64,000 nt of DNA, from NCBI RefSeq assembly GCF_003334315.1, contig NZ_QOWR01000003.1; one strand, 5' to 3'. Both the position numbers and the translations under genes were made by a program. Origin of the DNA: Escherichia coli. GTDB lineage: Bacteria > Pseudomonadota > Gammaproteobacteria > Enterobacterales > Enterobacteriaceae. The notes below the pieces were generated by a model. The model saw only the letters and a list, made by a program, of their open reading frames with translations, did no database searches and had not been told where the DNA came from. This document shows, piece after piece, positions 4,301-60,148 of the stretch (positions within the stretch are counted from its first letter, which is position 1; the number at the start of each line of letters is the position of its first letter).

Positions 4301-4702
4301 TTCCAGCTGGCGCAACGACAGCGTGCTCAGAATTTTGCGCGTTTCTTCGTCGTTATCGACATCGCTAAGTGCTGTTAACGCCGCGGTCGCCTGGCGCATT
4401 TTTTCCGGCGCTTCAGCGACTTTTTGCCGTAGCTGAACTGTCTCTTCTTTTATGCGATCGATTTTATCGAGGGTGGCTAATGTATCTGTCAGATCCTGCT
4501 GCACCAGTTTGTCCTGAGCAGAAAGATCTTTTTGTTTATTTAGTGAGTCAAGTTGCGCCTGCAGGTCCGCTTTTGTCGGCAGATCACCATTCGATGACGC
4601 CCGCGCAAACGCCGTGTTCTGGCATAACAAGACAAAAACAAAAGCAATAAATGCTGAAAAAACAAAATGCCGTGATCGTTTGTAATACTGGAACATAGTC
4701 AT
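1340..4702 (-). CDS. mscK: Potassium-dependent mechanosensitive channel MscK (KefA)
   Basis: ORF track 1340..4702, 1120 aa; N-terminal coiled-coil region and C-terminal MscS-like domain; length matches MscK. Confidence 0.95.
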   Translation of the reverse strand: MTMFQYYKRSRHFVFSAFIAFVFVLLCQNTAFARASSNGDLPTKADLQAQLDSLNKQKDLSAQDKLVQQDLTDTLATLDKIDRIKEETVQLRQKVAEAPEKMRQATAALTALSDVDNDEETRKILSTLSLRQLETRVAQALDDLQNAQNDLASYNSQLVSLQTQPERVQNAMYNASQQLQQIRSRLDGTDVGETALRPSQKVLMQAQQALLNAEIDQQRKSLEGNTVLQDTLQKQRDYVTANSARLEHQLQLLQEAVNSKRLTLTEKTAQEAVSPDEAARIQANPLVKQELEINQQLSQRLITATENGNQLMQQNIKVKNWLERALQSERNIKEQIAVLKGSLLLSRILYQQQQTLPSADELENMTNRIADLRLEQFEVNQQRDALFQSDAFVNKLEEGHTNEVNSEVHDALLQVVDMRRELLDQLNKQLGNQLMMAINLQINQQQLMSVSKNLKSILTQQIFWVNSNRPMDWDWIKAFPQSLKDEFKSMKITVNWQKAWPAVFIAFLAGLPLLLIAGLIHWRLGWLKAYQQKLASAVGSLRNDSQLNTPKAILIDLIRALPVCLIILAVGLILLTMQLNISELLWSFSKKLAIFWLVFGLCWKVLEKNGVAVRHFGMPEQQTSHWRRQIVRISLALLPIHFWSVVAELSPLHLMDDVLGQAMIFFNLLLIAFLVWPMCRESWRDKESHTMRLVTITVLSIIPIALMVLTATGYFYTTLRLAGRWIETVYLVIIWNLLYQTVLRGLSVAARRIAWRRALARRQNLVKEGAEGAEPPEEPTIALEQVNQQTLRITMLLMFALFGVMFWAIWSDLITVFSYLDSITLWHYNGTEAGAAVVKNVTMGSLLFAIIASMVAWALIRNLPGLLEVLVLSRLNMRQGASYAITTILNYIIIAVGAMTVFGSLGVSWDKLQWLAAALSVGLGFGLQEIFGNFVSGLIILFERPVRIGDTVTIGSFSGTVSKIRIRATTITDFDRKEVIIPNKAFVTERLINWSLTDTTTRLVIRLGVAYGSDLEKVRKVLLKAATEHPRVMHEPMPEVFFTAFGASTLDHELRLYVRELRDRSRTVDELNRTIDQLCRENDINIAFNQLEVHLHNEKGDEVTEVKRDYKGDDPTPAVG

Positions 4703-4829
4703 GATGAATGAAGGTTTCTGAACCTGAAGAACGACCTGAAAAAGTCAAACCGCAAGAATATCACGACGCAGTGAACCAGAATAGCAACGACGAAAATGTC
4801 CAGGAAAAATCCTGGAGTCAGATTCAGGG

Positions 4830-5477
4830 TTATTCGTTAGTGGCAGGATTACGAAGCGTGGGGCACAGGAGATACATCTCCAGTAAGATGGCAACGTAAT
4901 CGCGGGCTTCTTTTTTAAGATCAAAAGATTGCGGGGCAAAGAGCCAGTTTTCCATCAGGCCGGAAATATAGCCGCGCATAATAATTGCTGCGCGACGCGT
5001 CATTAAATCCGCAGGCAACATTTTCGCTTCAATACAATGTTTTAACGTTTGTTCTATACGGTCATAACTTTCCAGACAGAGATTACGTTGTGCCTGTTGC
5101 ACAACAGCCATTTCTCCGACAAATTCGCATTTGTGGAATATAATCTCCATCAATAATCGACGCCGTTCTTCTGTCACCGTGGATTCAAGAACATGAATTA
5201 ATATCTCTCTTAATACTGAGAGTGGATCGCCAGGGAATTTTGCCTGATACTCAAGCTCTAGTTCACCAATATTGGATTCTGACAGTTCCCAGATCTCACT
5301 GAACAAATCCGACTTGTCTTTAAAATGCCAGTAGATTGCACCGCGCGTAACGCCAGCTGCTTTTGCAATCTCGCCCAGCGAGGTGGATGATACCCCCTGC
5401 TGTGAGAAAAGACGTAGAGCCACATCGAGGATGTGTTGGCGCGTTTCTTGCGCTTCTTGTTTGGTTTTTCGTGCCAT
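4830..5477 (-). CDS. acrR: TetR-family repressor AcrR
   Basis: ORF track 4830..5477, 215 aa, [52 protein letters not shown] (TetR HTH); divergent from acrA. Confidence 0.95.
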
Positions 5478-5505
5478 ATGTTCGTGAATTTACAGGCGTT
5501 AGATT

Positions 5506-5529
5506 TACATACATTTGTGAATGTATGTA
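5506..5529. promoter_or_regulatory. AcrR operator: 24-bp palindrome in the acrR-acrA divergent promoter region
   Basis: tacatacatt-tgtg-aatgtatgta, perfect 10-bp inverted arms around a 4-bp centre, between acrR start (5477) and acrA start (5619). Confidence 0.85.
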
Positions 5530-5618
5530 CCATAGCACGACGATAATATAAACGCAGCAATGGGTTTATTAACTTTTGACCATTGACCAATTTGAAATCG
5601 GACACTCGAGGTTTACAT

Positions 5619-6812
5619 ATGAACAAAAACAGAGGGTTTACGCCTCTGGCGGTCGTTCTGATGCTCTCAGGCAGCTTAGCCCTAACAGGATGTGACGACA
5701 AACAGGCCCAACAAGGTGGCCAGCAGATGCCCGCCGTTGGCGTAGTAACAGTCAAAACTGAACCTCTGCAGATCACAACCGAGCTTCCGGGTCGCACCAG
5801 TGCCTACCGGATCGCAGAAGTTCGTCCTCAAGTTAGCGGGATTATCCTGAAGCGTAATTTCAAAGAAGGTAGCGACATCGAAGCAGGTGTCTCTCTCTAT
5901 CAGATTGATCCTGCGACCTATCAGGCGACATACGACAGTGCGAAAGGTGATCTGGCGAAAGCCCAGGCTGCAGCCAATATCGCGCAATTGACGGTGAATC
6001 GTTATCAGAAACTGCTCGGTACTCAGTACATCAGTAAGCAAGAGTACGATCAGGCTCTGGCTGATGCGCAACAGGCGAATGCTGCGGTAACTGCGGCGAA
6101 AGCTGCTGTTGAAACTGCGCGGATCAATCTGGCTTACACCAAAGTCACCTCTCCGATTAGCGGTCGCATTGGTAAGTCGAACGTGACGGAAGGCGCATTG
6201 GTACAGAACGGTCAGGCGACTGCACTGGCAACCGTGCAGCAACTTGATCCGATCTACGTTGATGTGACCCAGTCCAGCAACGACTTCCTGCGCCTGAAAC
6301 AGGAACTGGCGAATGGCACGCTGAAACAAGAGAACGGCAAAGCCAAAGTGTCGCTGATCACCAGTGACGGCATTAAGTTCCCACAGGACGGTACGCTGGA
6401 ATTCTCTGACGTTACCGTTGATCAGACCACTGGGTCTATCACTCTACGCGCTATCTTCCCGAACCCGGATCACACTCTGCTGCCGGGTATGTTCGTGCGC
6501 GCACGTCTGGAAGAAGGGCTTAATCCAAACGCTATTTTAGTCCCGCAACAGGGCGTAACCCGTACGCCGCGTGGCGATGCCACCGTACTGGTAGTTGGCG
6601 CGGATGACAAAGTGGAAACCCGTCCGATCGTTGCAAGTCAGGCTATTGGCGATAAGTGGCTGGTGACAGAAGGTCTGAAAGCAGGCGATCGCGTAGTAAT
6701 AAGTGGGCTGCAGAAAGTGCGTCCTGGTGTCCAGGTAAAAGCACAAGAAGTTACCGCTGATAATAACCAGCAAGCCGCAAGCGGTGCTCAGCCTGAACAG
6801 TCCAAGTCTTAA
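5619..6812 (+). CDS. acrA: Multidrug efflux periplasmic adaptor AcrA (lipoprotein)
   Basis: In-frame ATG at 5619 inside ORF-track entry 5583..6812; MNKNRGFTPLAVVLMLSGSLALTGC lipobox; 397 aa. Confidence 0.95.
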   Translation: MNKNRGFTPLAVVLMLSGSLALTGCDDKQAQQGGQQMPAVGVVTVKTEPLQITTELPGRTSAYRIAEVRPQVSGIILKRNFKEGSDIEAGVSLYQIDPATYQATYDSAKGDLAKAQAAANIAQLTVNRYQKLLGTQYISKQEYDQALADAQQANAAVTAAKAAVETARINLAYTKVTSPISGRIGKSNVTEGALVQNGQATALATVQQLDPIYVDVTQSSNDFLRLKQELANGTLKQENGKAKVSLITSDGIKFPQDGTLEFSDVTVDQTTGSITLRAIFPNPDHTLLPGMFVRARLEEGLNPNAILVPQQGVTRTPRGDATVLVVGADDKVETRPIVASQAIGDKWLVTEGLKAGDRVVISGLQKVRPGVQVKAQEVTADNNQQAASGAQPEQSKS

Positions 6813-6831
6813 CTTAAACAGGAGCCGTTAA

Positions 6832-9984
<3,153 letters not shown>

Positions 9985-14866: not shown

Positions 14867-15256
14867 ATGCTGGTTTCTTGCGCAATGCGACTTCACTCGG
14901 GCGTTTTTCCAGATTATGCTGAAAAATTACCTCAGGAAGAAAAGATGGAAAAAGAAGATTCATTTCCCCAACGCGTCTGGCAAATCGTCGCCGCTATTCC
15001 CGAAGGCTATGTCACCACTTACGGTGATGTGGCGAAACTGGCGGGATCGCCCCGCGCCGCGCGCCAGGTGGGCGGTGTGTTAAAGCGTCTCCCTGAAGGC
15101 AGCACCTTACCCTGGCACCGGGTGGTTAATCGCCACGGCACAATTTCGCTAACCGGACCGGATTTACAGCGTCAGCGACAGGCATTACTGGCAGAAGGTG
15201 TGATGGTATCGGGAAGCGGGCAAATCGACTTGCAGCGTTATCGCTGGAACTACTAA
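14867..15256 (+). CDS. atl: Alkyltransferase-like DNA repair protein Atl (YbaZ)
   Basis: ATG at 14867 inside ORF-track entry 14846..15256; 129 aa; MGMT-like C-terminal DNA-binding domain without the active-site cysteine. Confidence 0.85.
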   Translation: MLVSCAMRLHSGVFPDYAEKLPQEEKMEKEDSFPQRVWQIVAAIPEGYVTTYGDVAKLAGSPRAARQVGGVLKRLPEGSTLPWHRVVNRHGTISLTGPDLQRQRQALLAEGVMVSGSGQIDLQRYRWNY

Positions 15257-15276
15257 CCCTCTCCGGGCGGAGAGGG
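15257..15276. terminator. Hairpin between convergent atl and ybaY (possible bidirectional terminator)
   Basis: ccctctccg-gg-cggagaggg inverted repeat straddling both stop codons; no strong T-run. Confidence 0.4.
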
Positions 15277-15286
15277 TTAACGTCGC

Positions 15287-22855: not shown

Positions 22856-23007
22856 AGCCCTTCCACAGAGAATTTTTTTCTCTTTTAATTTTATTTTAAA
22901 GGTGAAATCACGACAATTTATTCTGTGCGGTTTAAACACCACGGCACAAAATGACAAATTCAACGCAAAAAAAACCGGGCAATTGCCCGGTGCTGGAAGG
23001 GATCTCG

Positions 23008-26400: not shown

Positions 26401-26425
26401 GCCGGATGCGGCTTGAGCATCCGGC
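26401..26425. repeat. REP-like palindrome / bidirectional terminator between queC and fadM
   Basis: gccggatgc-ggcttga-gcatccggc perfect 9-bp arms. Confidence 0.6.
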
Positions 26426-26836: not shown

Positions 26837-26877
26837 AGCGCAATAACCTTACGTTGTTGTTATAAGTACAGAGGTCA

Positions 26878-29323
<2,446 letters not shown>

Positions 29324-36114: not shown

Positions 36115-36373
36115 TCAAAAAATCACAGTGCTCGGTCAACTCTTACCCCGCAAGCACAGGTTGTTGGCTTCGCGGAACCGGGATGTTCTTATAATCAATC
36201 ACATTCCCTGTTACCAGAATCATCCCGAAAGCATTCAAATAGGACGCGGCATTATAGCGGCATCACTTTTATGAGTCGAGAACGGTTATTGCGCGCTGTC
36301 GCGTATTTTTTCACAATTCCCGGGCAATTTTCGTCTGAATGCTGGGCAAAAAGCGCAAAATCCAGACAAAACA

Positions 36374-36396
36374 AAACGGCCCGCAGGCCGTTTTTC
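36374..36396 (-). terminator. Intrinsic terminator downstream of bolA
   Basis: acggcc-cgca-ggccgt stem flanked by A-run and T-run. Confidence 0.65.
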
Positions 36397-44423: not shown

Positions 44424-44440
44424 CAAAACCTCTCTATTAA

Positions 44441-44464
44441 AAAGGTGCTACGGCACCTTTTTTC
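44441..44464 (+). terminator. Intrinsic terminator of the cyo operon
   Basis: aaaggtgc-tacg-gcaccttt stem followed by tttt. Confidence 0.75.
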
Positions 44465-48189: not shown

Positions 48190-48232
48190 TCGGATGCGGC
48201 AAACGTCGCATCTGACCAGATGCGACGTAAAA
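48190..48232. repeat. REP-like overlapping hairpins between convergent yajL and thiI
   Basis: cggatgcggcaaacgtcgcatctgaccagatgcgacg: gatgcg/cgcatc and gcatctg/cagatgc inverted repeats. Confidence 0.5.
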
Positions 48233-60109: not shown

Positions 60110-60117
60110 TTATGAAA

Positions 60118-60148
60118 ATGCCGGGATTTATTCCCGGCATTTCTGATT
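60118..60148 (+). terminator. Intrinsic terminator downstream of tsx
   Basis: atgccggga-ttta-ttcccggcat stem followed by ttctgatt. Confidence 0.7.

What the first reader, a model, noticed from the sequence alone, without database searches (positions are those of the whole stretch)
5478..5618. acrR-acrA divergent region with a 24-bp perfect-arm palindrome
The palindrome tacatacatt-tgtg-aatgtatgta lies between the divergent acrR and acrAB start codons, consistent with the TetR-family AcrR operator that controls both promoters. It is included as the clearest operator in the window.
Basis: partly seen in the sequence, partly recalled or inferred. Interest (0 to 1): 0.2.

Follow-up and report, generated by a model that had tools for sequence, protein, structure and literature searches.

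The report
Known AcrR operator of E. coli
The 24-bp palindrome between acrR and acrAB is real and is exactly the published binding site of the AcrR repressor, which controls the main multidrug efflux pump of E. coli, so it is a textbook element, not a discovery.

Summary
TACATACATT-TGTG-AATGTATGTA lies at 5506-5529, inside the 141-bp acrR/acrA intergenic region (5478-5618) of an E. coli chromosome segment that is base-for-base identical to K-12 here.

[quoted passage not shown] 2007, cited in PMC9769551 and PMC10597343), and acrAB promoter DNA is the positive control in AcrR gel-shift assays.

- 120 loci from about 50 genera of Enterobacterales, plus one betaproteobacterium, were fetched with a probe that does not include the palindrome. 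In 119 of them the arms have 0-2 mismatches out of 20. Three of the four spacer bases vary freely.
- AcrR protein identity falls to about 55-60% in the same loci.
- Published transcription-start data put the acrR start inside the right arm (5522). They put the acrAB start at 5539.
- The operator therefore fills the gap between the -35 (TTTACA) and -10 (TACCAT) of the acrAB promoter. It also covers -7 to +17 of an overlapping, oppositely oriented acrR promoter (extended -10, TGcTATGGT). One bound repressor complex can block both.

Novelty: already known. Interest is low.

The parts
4830..5477 (-). acrR coding sequence: TetR-family repressor, 215 aa, stop codon included
   Evidence: ORF list. 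NCBIfam equivalog NF007949 AcrR scores 419 bits against a cut-off of 271. RefSeq annotation under the match. PDB 2QOP/3BCG hold the same protein, E 1.6e-141.
5458..5477 (.). marbox: the MarA/SoxS/Rob activator site. It coincides with the first 20 nt of acrR and lies upstream of the acrAB -35.
   Evidence: PMC11642870 states that the first 20 nt of the acrR coding region contain the marbox. The 20-mer ATGGCACGAAAAACCAAACA was found exactly in at least 120 genomes of Enterobacterales.
5478..5618 (.). 141-bp acrR-acrA divergent intergenic region (the range given in the finding)
   Evidence: '141 bp upstream ... divergently transcribed' in PMC9769551.
5504..5509 (+). acrAB promoter -35 hexamer TTTACA. 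Its last four bases are the first four of the left arm.
   Evidence: Consensus scan found TTTACA-18 nt-TACCAT. Positions 5505-5509 are invariant in 104 unique sequences. PMC4403819 notes that the AcrR motif overlaps the -35 of acrAB in Yersinia.
5506..5515 (.). left arm of the AcrR operator, TACATACATT
   Evidence: Mean column identity 0.995 across 104 unique sequences. Published site.
5516..5519 (.). 4-nt spacer TGTG. The first three positions vary between genera; G5519 is invariant.
   Evidence: Spacer variants seen: TGTG, TATG, CGCG, CACG, TGCG, TTTG, GATG, CAAG, TTCG, CGAG. Column counts.
5520..5529 (.). right arm of the AcrR operator, AATGTATGTA
   Evidence: Mean column identity 0.976.
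5522..5522 (-). acrR transcription start (an A on the minus strand), inside the right arm
   Evidence: Cappable-seq TSS at U00096.2 position 484,940 (+), score 59.3, 45 nt upstream of the acrR ATG (PMC4782308 supplement). The coordinate frame was checked against acrR 484985-485632. K-12 context is tgcTATGGTacatacA.
5528..5533 (+). acrAB promoter -10 hexamer TACCAT. Its first two bases are the last two of the right arm.
   Evidence: Positions 5528, 5529, 5532 and 5533 are invariant. It lies 6-11 nt upstream of the orthologous mapped TSS.
5529..5537 (-). acrR promoter extended -10, TGcTATGGT read on the minus strand. It overlaps the acrAB -10 on the opposite strand.
   Evidence: Inferred from the TSS at 5522 and the sequence. 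Columns 5529-5537 have the window base in 83-100% of the 104 unique sequences, and in at least 90% at every position except 5530. This promoter was not picked up by the simple -35/-10 scan.
5539..5539 (+). acrAB transcription start, placed by orthology with Klebsiella pneumoniae
   Evidence: The K. pneumoniae acrA TSS (284 reads) is 81 nt upstream of acrA. Its listed 51-nt upstream sequence, TTTACAGAGGTTACGTTTACATACATTTGTGAATGTATGTACCATAGCATG, ends at the base aligned with window 5539 (PMC3415461 supplement). No E. coli TSS for this promoter could be retrieved.
5540..5618 (+). acrAB 5' untranslated leader with Shine-Dalgarno GAGG at 5608-5611
   Evidence: Sequence. Highly conserved across genera, especially 5551-5567 and 5580-5618.
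5619..6812 (+). acrA: periplasmic adaptor, 397 aa
   Evidence: NCBIfam NF011604 scores 885 bits against a cut-off of 765. RefSeq annotation.
6835..9984 (+). acrB: RND permease, 1049 aa, co-transcribed target of the operator
   Evidence: NCBIfam NF011706 scores 2422 bits against a cut-off of 2150.

Best explanation
The palindrome at 5506-5529 is the operator of the TetR-family repressor AcrR in the E. coli acrR-acrAB divergent control region. AcrR dimers (suggested in the literature to be two dimers per site) bind the two 10-bp arms through their N-terminal helix-turn-helix domains.

The operator occupies -33 to -10 of the acrAB promoter: -35 TTTACA at 5504-5509, -10 TACCAT at 5528-5533, start near 5539. 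It also occupies -7 to +17 of the oppositely oriented acrR promoter: extended -10 TGcTATGGT at 5537-5529, start at 5522. The two -10 elements overlap on opposite strands. Bound AcrR therefore blocks RNA polymerase from both promoters. That represses the AcrAB efflux pump and autoregulates acrR.

Binding of ligands (rhodamine 6G, ethidium, proflavine, some cellular metabolites) to the C-terminal domain releases AcrR from the DNA. MarA/SoxS/Rob, bound at the marbox (5458-5477) upstream of the -35, activate the freed promoter.

What is shown and by what:
- Shown by others: AcrR binds this sequence and represses acrAB and acrR.
- Shown here: position, conservation pattern, and geometry relative to mapped transcription starts.
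- Inferred: steric occlusion as the mechanism, simultaneous control of both promoters through one site, and the stoichiometry.
For: (1) The exact 24-mer is the published AcrR site, and AcrR shifts acrAB promoter DNA but not gapA DNA (PMC9769551; PMC10597343).

(2) The flanking genes are acrR and acrAB by curated models and annotation. The region is identical to K-12.

(3) Phylogenetic footprint. In 120 loci fetched with the neighbouring marbox 20-mer, not with the palindrome, 119 carry the arms with 0-2 of 20 mismatches. Most sit at a fixed 27-28 nt from the acrR ATG. AcrR identity drops to 55-60% and AcrA identity to 58-70% in the same loci.

(4) Column identity is 0.995 and 0.976 for the arms, 0.75 for the spacer and 0.68 for 5478-5505. 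The 14 arm positions lying in the promoter spacer, where sigma-70 imposes little sequence constraint, are 89-100% conserved, all but two of them (5520, 5525) at 98% or more. The three central bases vary. This is the signature of a symmetric dimeric protein contact.

(5) The AcrR recognition-helix segment [13 protein letters not shown] (residues 40-52) is conserved in at least 90% of the sequences at every position across the same genomes. The N-terminal domain averages 0.83 identity and the ligand-binding domain 0.67.

(6) The acrR TSS lies inside the right arm. The orthologous acrA TSS lies 10 nt past the right arm. The consensus -35/-10 brackets the operator.

(7) AcrR autoregulation and ligand release are reported.
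Against: - The primary binding paper (Su et al. 2007) and the structure paper (Li et al. 2007) were not available. The site and the dimer-of-dimers model are taken second-hand from papers citing them.
- No AcrR-DNA complex is in the PDB, only apo or ligand forms. Contacts and stoichiometry are therefore unproven.
- The E. coli acrAB start was not retrieved. It is placed by orthology with K. pneumoniae. The one E. coli data set read lists only two upstream starts inside acrR.
- Part of the arm conservation could come from the overlapping promoter elements and the acrR initial transcribed region rather than from AcrR alone.
- The comparative set is biased towards loci that keep the adjacent marbox exactly, and it was capped at 120 loci.
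- Conservation within E. coli is uninformative, because the whole 141 bp is >=99% identical in 5420 of 5424 genomes.
Confidence: 0.97

Rival explanations
1. The palindrome acts as a nucleic-acid hairpin: an RNA stem-loop in the acrR or acrAB leader, or a DNA cruciform. It would affect termination, stability or translation, and would not be a protein operator.
For: Transcribed from the minus strand, 5540-5478 folds with the 10-bp stem at -12.9 kcal/mol, z = -2.6 against shuffles.
Against: The mapped starts exclude both arms from the two main transcripts. acrR RNA starts at 5522 and so contains only 3 nt of the right arm. acrAB RNA starts near 5539, downstream of the palindrome.

The stem is AT-rich with no following T-run, and the terminator scan did not call it.

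Single-arm substitutions seen in other genera are never compensated in the partner column: A5525T in 11 unique sequences and changes at 5520 in 13.
Confidence: 0.02
2. The site is chiefly the target of another regulator and AcrR is secondary. One candidate is the AcrR paralogue EnvR/AcrS, reported to repress acrAB. Another is OmpR, proposed in Yersinia to overlap the AcrR motif.
For: Reviews list AcrS/EnvR as a repressor of acrAB (Hirakawa et al. 2008, cited in PMC4462101, and PMC6790063). PMC4403819 proposes an OmpR site overlapping the AcrR motif in Y. enterocolitica.
Against: Direct AcrR binding to this DNA is documented. The operator always accompanies acrR at a fixed distance in 119 of 120 loci. 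The AcrR recognition helix is co-conserved with it. Shared use by EnvR would add to the AcrR-operator reading and would not replace it. The Hirakawa paper could not be read.
Confidence: 0.05
3. The palindrome is a by-product of two overlapping divergent promoters, or simple chance, with no repressor function of its own.
For: A perfect palindrome with arms of 10 nt or more appears in 38% of simulated 64-kb windows. The arms contribute bases to the -35 and -10 hexamers of acrAB and to the acrR start region.
Against: Promoter hexamers overlap only 6 of the 20 arm positions. The other 14 are 89-100% conserved, all but two of them (5520, 5525) at 98% or more, and in a mirror-symmetric pattern, while the centre varies. 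The same palindrome recurs in a betaproteobacterial TetR/RND locus with a different -10, TAAAAT. Published EMSA shows AcrR binding.
Confidence: 0.01

Closest known systems
AcrR operator of the E. coli K-12 acrAB promoter (Su, Rutherford & Yu 2007; Ma et al. 1996)
   Same: Identical sequence, position and flanking genes. The intergenic region with its flanks (window 5441-5660) matches K-12 MG1655 base for base. The 24-mer is the one quoted in the literature.
   Different: Nothing. This is the same element in another E. coli strain.
QacR-IR1 operator of Staphylococcus aureus qacA (TetR family, two dimers on a long inverted repeat)
   Same: A long inverted repeat (24-28 bp). A TetR-family multidrug-binding repressor of an efflux gene. 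A dimer-of-dimers binding mode has been suggested for AcrR (PMC10597343). The operator overlaps the core promoter or start region. The details of QacR are from general knowledge, not tested here.
   Different: Unrelated operator sequence. QacR regulates an MFS pump and does not autoregulate through a shared divergent operator in the same way. No AcrR-DNA structure exists to confirm the stoichiometry.
TetR-tetO (Tn10), the type I divergent TetR paradigm
   Same: A divergent regulator/efflux-gene pair. A palindromic operator in the intergenic region overlaps both promoters. A ligand releases the repressor (general family description in PMC6790063 and PMC8277102).
   Different: tetO sites are 15-bp palindromes, present in two copies, and each binds one dimer (general knowledge). 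Here there is a single 24-bp site. AcrR matches the TetR model only weakly (E 1.9e-6).
MtrR and TtgR operators (closest solved relatives of AcrR: PDB 7JU3/7JNP family and 7K1A/7KD8 family)
   Same: MtrR and TtgR are the nearest AcrR homologues with solved structures (E 2e-32 and 2e-44; the NCBIfam MtrR model gives E 5e-49). Both repress RND pump operons from promoter-overlapping pseudo-palindromes.
   Different: Different operator sequences and spacing (from memory, not tested). Whether the listed PDB entries contain DNA was not checked here.

Membership tests
AcrR operator of the enterobacterial acrR-acrAB locus | Sequence equals the published 24-bp site 5'-TACATACATTTGTGAATGTATGTA-3' | tested here: met
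   Exact match at 5506-5529. Sequence quoted in PMC9769551 and PMC10597343.
AcrR operator of the enterobacterial acrR-acrAB locus | Lies between divergently transcribed acrR and acrAB | tested here: met
   acrR 4830-5477 (-), acrA 5619-6812 (+), acrB 6835-9984 (+). All score above the cut-offs of the NCBIfam equivalog models. RefSeq annotation agrees.
AcrR operator of the enterobacterial acrR-acrAB locus | Direct, specific binding by purified AcrR | not testable with these tools
   Taken from the literature. EMSA with acrAB promoter DNA is positive and the gapA control is negative (PMC9769551; PMC10597343). The primary paper, Su et al. 2007, was not available.
AcrR operator of the enterobacterial acrR-acrAB locus | Conserved with the regulator across orthologous loci | tested here: met
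   119 of 120 loci keep the arms with 2 or fewer mismatches. The spacer varies. The recognition helix is near-invariant.
TetR-family type I operator (divergent regulator/target, promoter-overlapping palindrome) | Inverted repeat with dyad symmetry suited to a dimeric helix-turn-helix protein | tested here: met
   10+4+10 arrangement, 100% complementary arms.
TetR-family type I operator (divergent regulator/target, promoter-overlapping palindrome) | Overlaps the core promoter or transcription start of the target gene | tested here: met
   The operator spans the gap between TTTACA and TACCAT. The orthologous K. pneumoniae acrA TSS maps to 5539. Caveat: the E. coli TSS itself was not retrieved.
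TetR-family type I operator (divergent regulator/target, promoter-overlapping palindrome) | Overlaps the regulator's own promoter (autoregulation) | tested here: met
   The Cappable-seq acrR TSS at window 5522 lies inside the right arm. Autoregulation is stated in PMC9769551, citing Ma et al. 1996.
TetR-family type I operator (divergent regulator/target, promoter-overlapping palindrome) | Ligand binding to the regulator releases it from the operator | not testable with these tools
   Literature only. Rhodamine 6G and other ligands prevent DNA binding (PMC8277102; PMC11642870).
QacR-like 'two dimers per long inverted repeat' binding mode | Stoichiometry of two dimers per operator | not testable with these tools
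   Only 'has been suggested' in PMC10597343. No AcrR-DNA complex is in the PDB.

The most novel reading that the evidence does not exclude
The palindrome may carry more constraints than AcrR binding alone. The arms are essentially invariant from Escherichia to Edwardsiella, Dickeya and even a betaproteobacterium. The two divergent promoters share an overlapping -10 region, and the acrR start lies inside the right arm. The spacer base G5519 is invariant in 104 of 104 unique sequences, while its symmetry partner 5516 varies freely. That asymmetry is unexpected for a symmetric repressor site. It could reflect an undescribed contact, for example with RNA polymerase at one of the two promoters, with an asymmetrically bound second AcrR dimer, or with EnvR.
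Probability: 0.25. Interest if true: 0.2.

Novelty: already known. Interest (0 to 1): 0.06.

Why it matters
AcrAB-TolC is the principal intrinsic multidrug efflux pump of E. coli and its relatives, and this operator is the local switch that limits its expression. Mutations in acrR contribute to clinical multidrug resistance. The site has been characterised since 1996-2007, so confirming it adds nothing new. Its value is as a positive control showing that the first-stage reader can recognise a genuine operator. The promoter geometry and the cross-genus footprint compiled here are modest refinements.

Tried and rejected
- **Papers not held.** Su et al. 2007 (PMC2104644), Li et al. 2007 (PMC2254304), the TetR review (PMC3811609), Hirakawa et al. 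2008 (PMC2546796) and Thomason et al. 2015 (PMC4288677) were requested but not held. The binding data are therefore cited second-hand.
- **E. coli acrAB transcription start not retrieved.** The stored part of the Cappable-seq GTF holds only plus-strand starts. Romero et al. 2014 supplements gave nothing. The Kim et al. 2012 E. coli table lists only two starts inside acrR for acrA. I used the K. pneumoniae orthologue instead.
- **Conservation within E. coli** was rejected as evidence for function, because the whole intergenic region is >=99% identical in nearly all genomes.
- **The palindrome statistic alone** is not significant at window scale.
- **The sigma-70 scan's minus-strand candidates** (TTAATA...TATATT/TATTAT) were rejected as the acrR promoter. 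The mapped start (5522) fits an extended -10, TGcTATGGT, and the TTAATA hexamer is poorly conserved.
- **The RNA hairpin reading** was rejected on the transcription-start positions.
- **Weak direct repeats** D2 (5475-5492 / 5508-5525) and D4 (5501-5511 / 5609-5619) were considered as extra half-sites and set aside as probably chance.

Full report
**Observation.** The sequence at window 5506-5529 is TACATACATT-TGTG-AATGTATGTA. It has two 10-nt arms that are 100% complementary, separated by 4 nt. It occurs once in the 64-kb window even with three mismatches allowed, and never in 100 shuffles. A 215-aa ORF on the minus strand has its start codon at 5475-5477, and a 397-aa ORF on the plus strand starts at 5619. 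A perfect palindrome of this size is not statistically remarkable in 64 kb. Markov simulations give 0.58 counts per window, and 38% of simulated windows have at least one. The real window has several others, mostly GC-rich hairpins between convergent genes. For this particular 141-bp region the expectation is about 1e-3. The strength of the finding comes from context and conservation.

**Identity of the locus.** The flanking proteins exceed the curated cut-offs of the NCBIfam equivalog models for AcrR (419 bits against 271), AcrA (885 against 765), AcrB (2422 against 2150) and MscK. Window 4700-7000 is 100% identical to many complete E. coli chromosomes and is found in 5424 of 5426 genomes, annotated acrR/acrA/acrB/mscK. 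The intergenic region and its flanks are identical base for base to K-12 MG1655. A window position p corresponds to NC_000913.3 position 491,238 - p.

**What is known about this sequence.** A full-text search for the 24-mer found three papers. [quoted passage not shown] They describe it as two 10-bp inverted repeats separated by 4 bp, citing Su, Rutherford & Yu 2007. Both use acrAB promoter DNA as the positive control in AcrR gel shifts, with gapA as the negative control (PMC9769551; PMC10597343). The same sources report the following:
- acrR lies 141 bp upstream of acrAB and is divergently transcribed.
- AcrR regulates its own expression (Ma et al. 1996).
- Ligands such as rhodamine 6G release AcrR from DNA (PMC8277102).
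- The first 20 nt of acrR (window 5458-5477) form the marbox bound by MarA/SoxS/Rob (PMC11642870).

The primary papers were not available to me, so these statements are second-hand. The PDB holds AcrR only without DNA (2QOP, 3BCG, Salmonella 3LHQ). The nearest relatives with structures are TtgR and MtrR.

**Comparative evidence gathered here.** To avoid circularity I fetched related loci with the marbox 20-mer ATGGCACGAAAAACCAAACA, not with the palindrome. They come from about 50 genera of Enterobacterales, including Escherichia, Salmonella, Citrobacter, Klebsiella, Enterobacter, Serratia, Yersinia, Erwinia, Pantoea, Dickeya, Brenneria and Edwardsiella, plus one betaproteobacterium.
- **Arms.** In 119 of 120 loci the arms carry 0-2 mismatches out of 20, nearly always 27-28 nt from the acrR start codon.
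- **Proteins.** In the same loci AcrR identity to E. coli falls to 55-60% and AcrA identity to 58-70%.
- **Spacer.** The first three spacer bases vary (TGTG, TATG, CGCG, CACG, TGCG, TTTG, GATG, CAAG and others).
- **Column identity.** Over 104 unique sequences it is 0.995 for the left arm, 0.976 for the right arm, 0.75 for the spacer and 0.68 for 5478-5505.
- **Promoter overlap.** Only six arm positions overlap promoter hexamers. The other fourteen lie in the promoter spacer, where sigma-70 imposes little sequence constraint. They are nevertheless 89-100% conserved, all but two of them (5520, 5525) at 98% or more, in a mirror-symmetric pattern.
- **Co-conservation.** The recognition-helix segment of AcrR ([13 protein letters not shown], residues 40-52) is conserved in at least 90% of the sequences at every position. 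The N-terminal domain averages 0.83 identity and the ligand-binding domain 0.67.

Caveats: the set is biased towards loci that keep the adjacent marbox, and it is capped. Within E. coli the whole intergenic region is >=99% identical in 5420 of 5424 genomes, so population data do not discriminate.

**Promoter geometry.** A consensus scan finds TTTACA (5504-5509), 18 nt, then TACCAT (5528-5533) on the plus strand. In K. pneumoniae the mapped acrA start (284 reads, 81 nt upstream of acrA) has the listed upstream sequence ...TTTACATACATTTGTGAATGTATGTACCATAGCATG. This places the orthologous start at window 5539 (Kim et al. 2012 supplement). The operator is therefore at -33 to -10 of the acrAB promoter.

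For acrR, Cappable-seq gives a strong start at U00096.2 position 484,940, 45 nt upstream of the ATG. That is window 5522 on the minus strand, an A preceded by TGcTATGGTacatac. So acrR has an extended -10 promoter whose -10 (5534-5529) overlaps the acrAB -10 on the opposite strand. Its start lies inside the right arm, and the operator covers -7 to +17. The bases of both -10 elements and the TG extension are conserved across genera. One AcrR complex on one site can thus occlude both promoters, which fits the reported repression of acrAB and autoregulation. The occlusion mechanism itself is inference.

**Rivals.**
- **RNA hairpin.** The fold is possible on paper (-12.9 kcal/mol, z = -2.6). However, neither main transcript contains both arms, there is no T-run, and single-arm substitutions are never compensated.
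- **Other regulators.** Use of the site by EnvR/AcrS or OmpR would add to the AcrR-operator reading and would not replace it.
- **Promoter by-product or chance.** This is contradicted by the symmetric conservation pattern, by the recurrence of the palindrome in a betaproteobacterial TetR/RND locus with a different -10, and by the published binding data.

**Verdict.** The element is the already-characterised AcrR operator, so novelty is nil and interest is low. The only mildly unexplained detail is the invariance of the spacer base G5519 against a variable symmetry partner.

Noticed in passing
window 5519 (spacer) versus 5516: The last spacer base, G5519, is invariant in all 104 unique sequences from about 50 genera. 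Its dyad partner 5516 varies (T 76, C 24, G 3, A 1). This asymmetry is unexpected for a symmetric repressor site.
   Followed up: partly
window 5260 and 5398, + strand (inside acrR, antisense to it): Kim et al. 2012 list transcription starts in the acrA direction 359 and 221 nt upstream of acrA in E. coli, and 361 nt upstream in K. pneumoniae, with similar upstream sequence. This looks like a conserved promoter inside acrR that reads through the marbox and the operator towards acrAB.
   Followed up: partly
window 5540-5618: The acrAB 5' leader is very strongly conserved across Enterobacterales, for example 5551-5567 AACGCAGCAATGGGTTT and 5580-5618 including GGA motifs near the Shine-Dalgarno sequence. 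This is more than expected for an untranslated leader. From memory, CsrA has been reported to bind this leader; I did not verify that.
   Followed up: no
window 5458-5477: The marbox coincides with the first 20 nt of acrR and is conserved exactly at the DNA level in at least 120 genomes, including synonymous positions. This is a dual coding/regulatory constraint.
   Followed up: partly
window 26870-26894: A second perfect 10-nt-arm palindrome, AGAGGTCATA-ACTGG-TATGACCTCT, lies 35-59 nt upstream of the fadM start codon, between ybaV and fadM. From memory it resembles a FadR box (AACTGGT..GACC). It competes with the AcrR site for the title of 'clearest operator in the window'.
   Followed up: partly
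window 22974-22991: A perfect 18-bp palindrome with no spacer, ACCGGGCAATTGCCCGGT, lies between cof and decR. It could be a terminator or an operator; undetermined.
   Followed up: no
window 15254-15279, 48203-48228, 44439-44462, 36373-36394, 26401-26425, 60116-60142: These are other perfect palindromes. Most are GC-rich and all but 60116 map to 3' gene ends or between convergent genes (ybaY/ybaZ, thiI/yajL, cyoE end, bolA end, fadM/queC). They look like intrinsic terminators. 60116 lies outside the K-12 stretch I annotated.
   Followed up: partly
L110 (Candidatus Symbiopectobacterium endolongispinus), region after the acrR start: This is the only locus of the 120 without the palindrome. A deletion of about 45 bp removes the operator and the core acrAB promoter but keeps the leader, and acrR aligns only partially. 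That is consistent with gene decay in an endosymbiont.
   Followed up: partly
L076 (Craterilacuibacter sp. RT1T, Betaproteobacteria): The same palindrome (TACATACATG-CATG-AATGTATGTA) sits between TTTACA and TAAAAT, 91 nt from a TetR gene that starts with the same 20-mer. It lies next to an adaptor only 40% identical to AcrA. The operator motif therefore extends beyond Enterobacterales, or was transferred.
   Followed up: partly
L101 (467-bp contig labelled Prolixibacteraceae bacterium JC049): A tiny contig in a Bacteroidota assembly carries an Enterobacter-like acrR start and operator. This is probably contamination of that assembly.
   Followed up: no
E. coli genomes: hit H40 (NZ_CP148461.1) and two plasmid places: In strain Z1323CEC0008 the match to the intergenic region stops at window 5498/5499, next to an IS481-family transposase. 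That is between the marbox and the -35. Separately, two E. coli plasmids carry a copy of the acrR-acrA region.
   Followed up: no
window 5506-5529 in the E. coli population: 5424 complete genomes hold the locus, but only 5389 match the 32-mer 5502-5533 through an exact 28-base word. Such a word is lost whenever a change falls inside 5506-5529. About 35 genomes (0.65%) therefore probably carry an operator variant, for example the TATG spacer seen in L038 and L056.
   Followed up: partly
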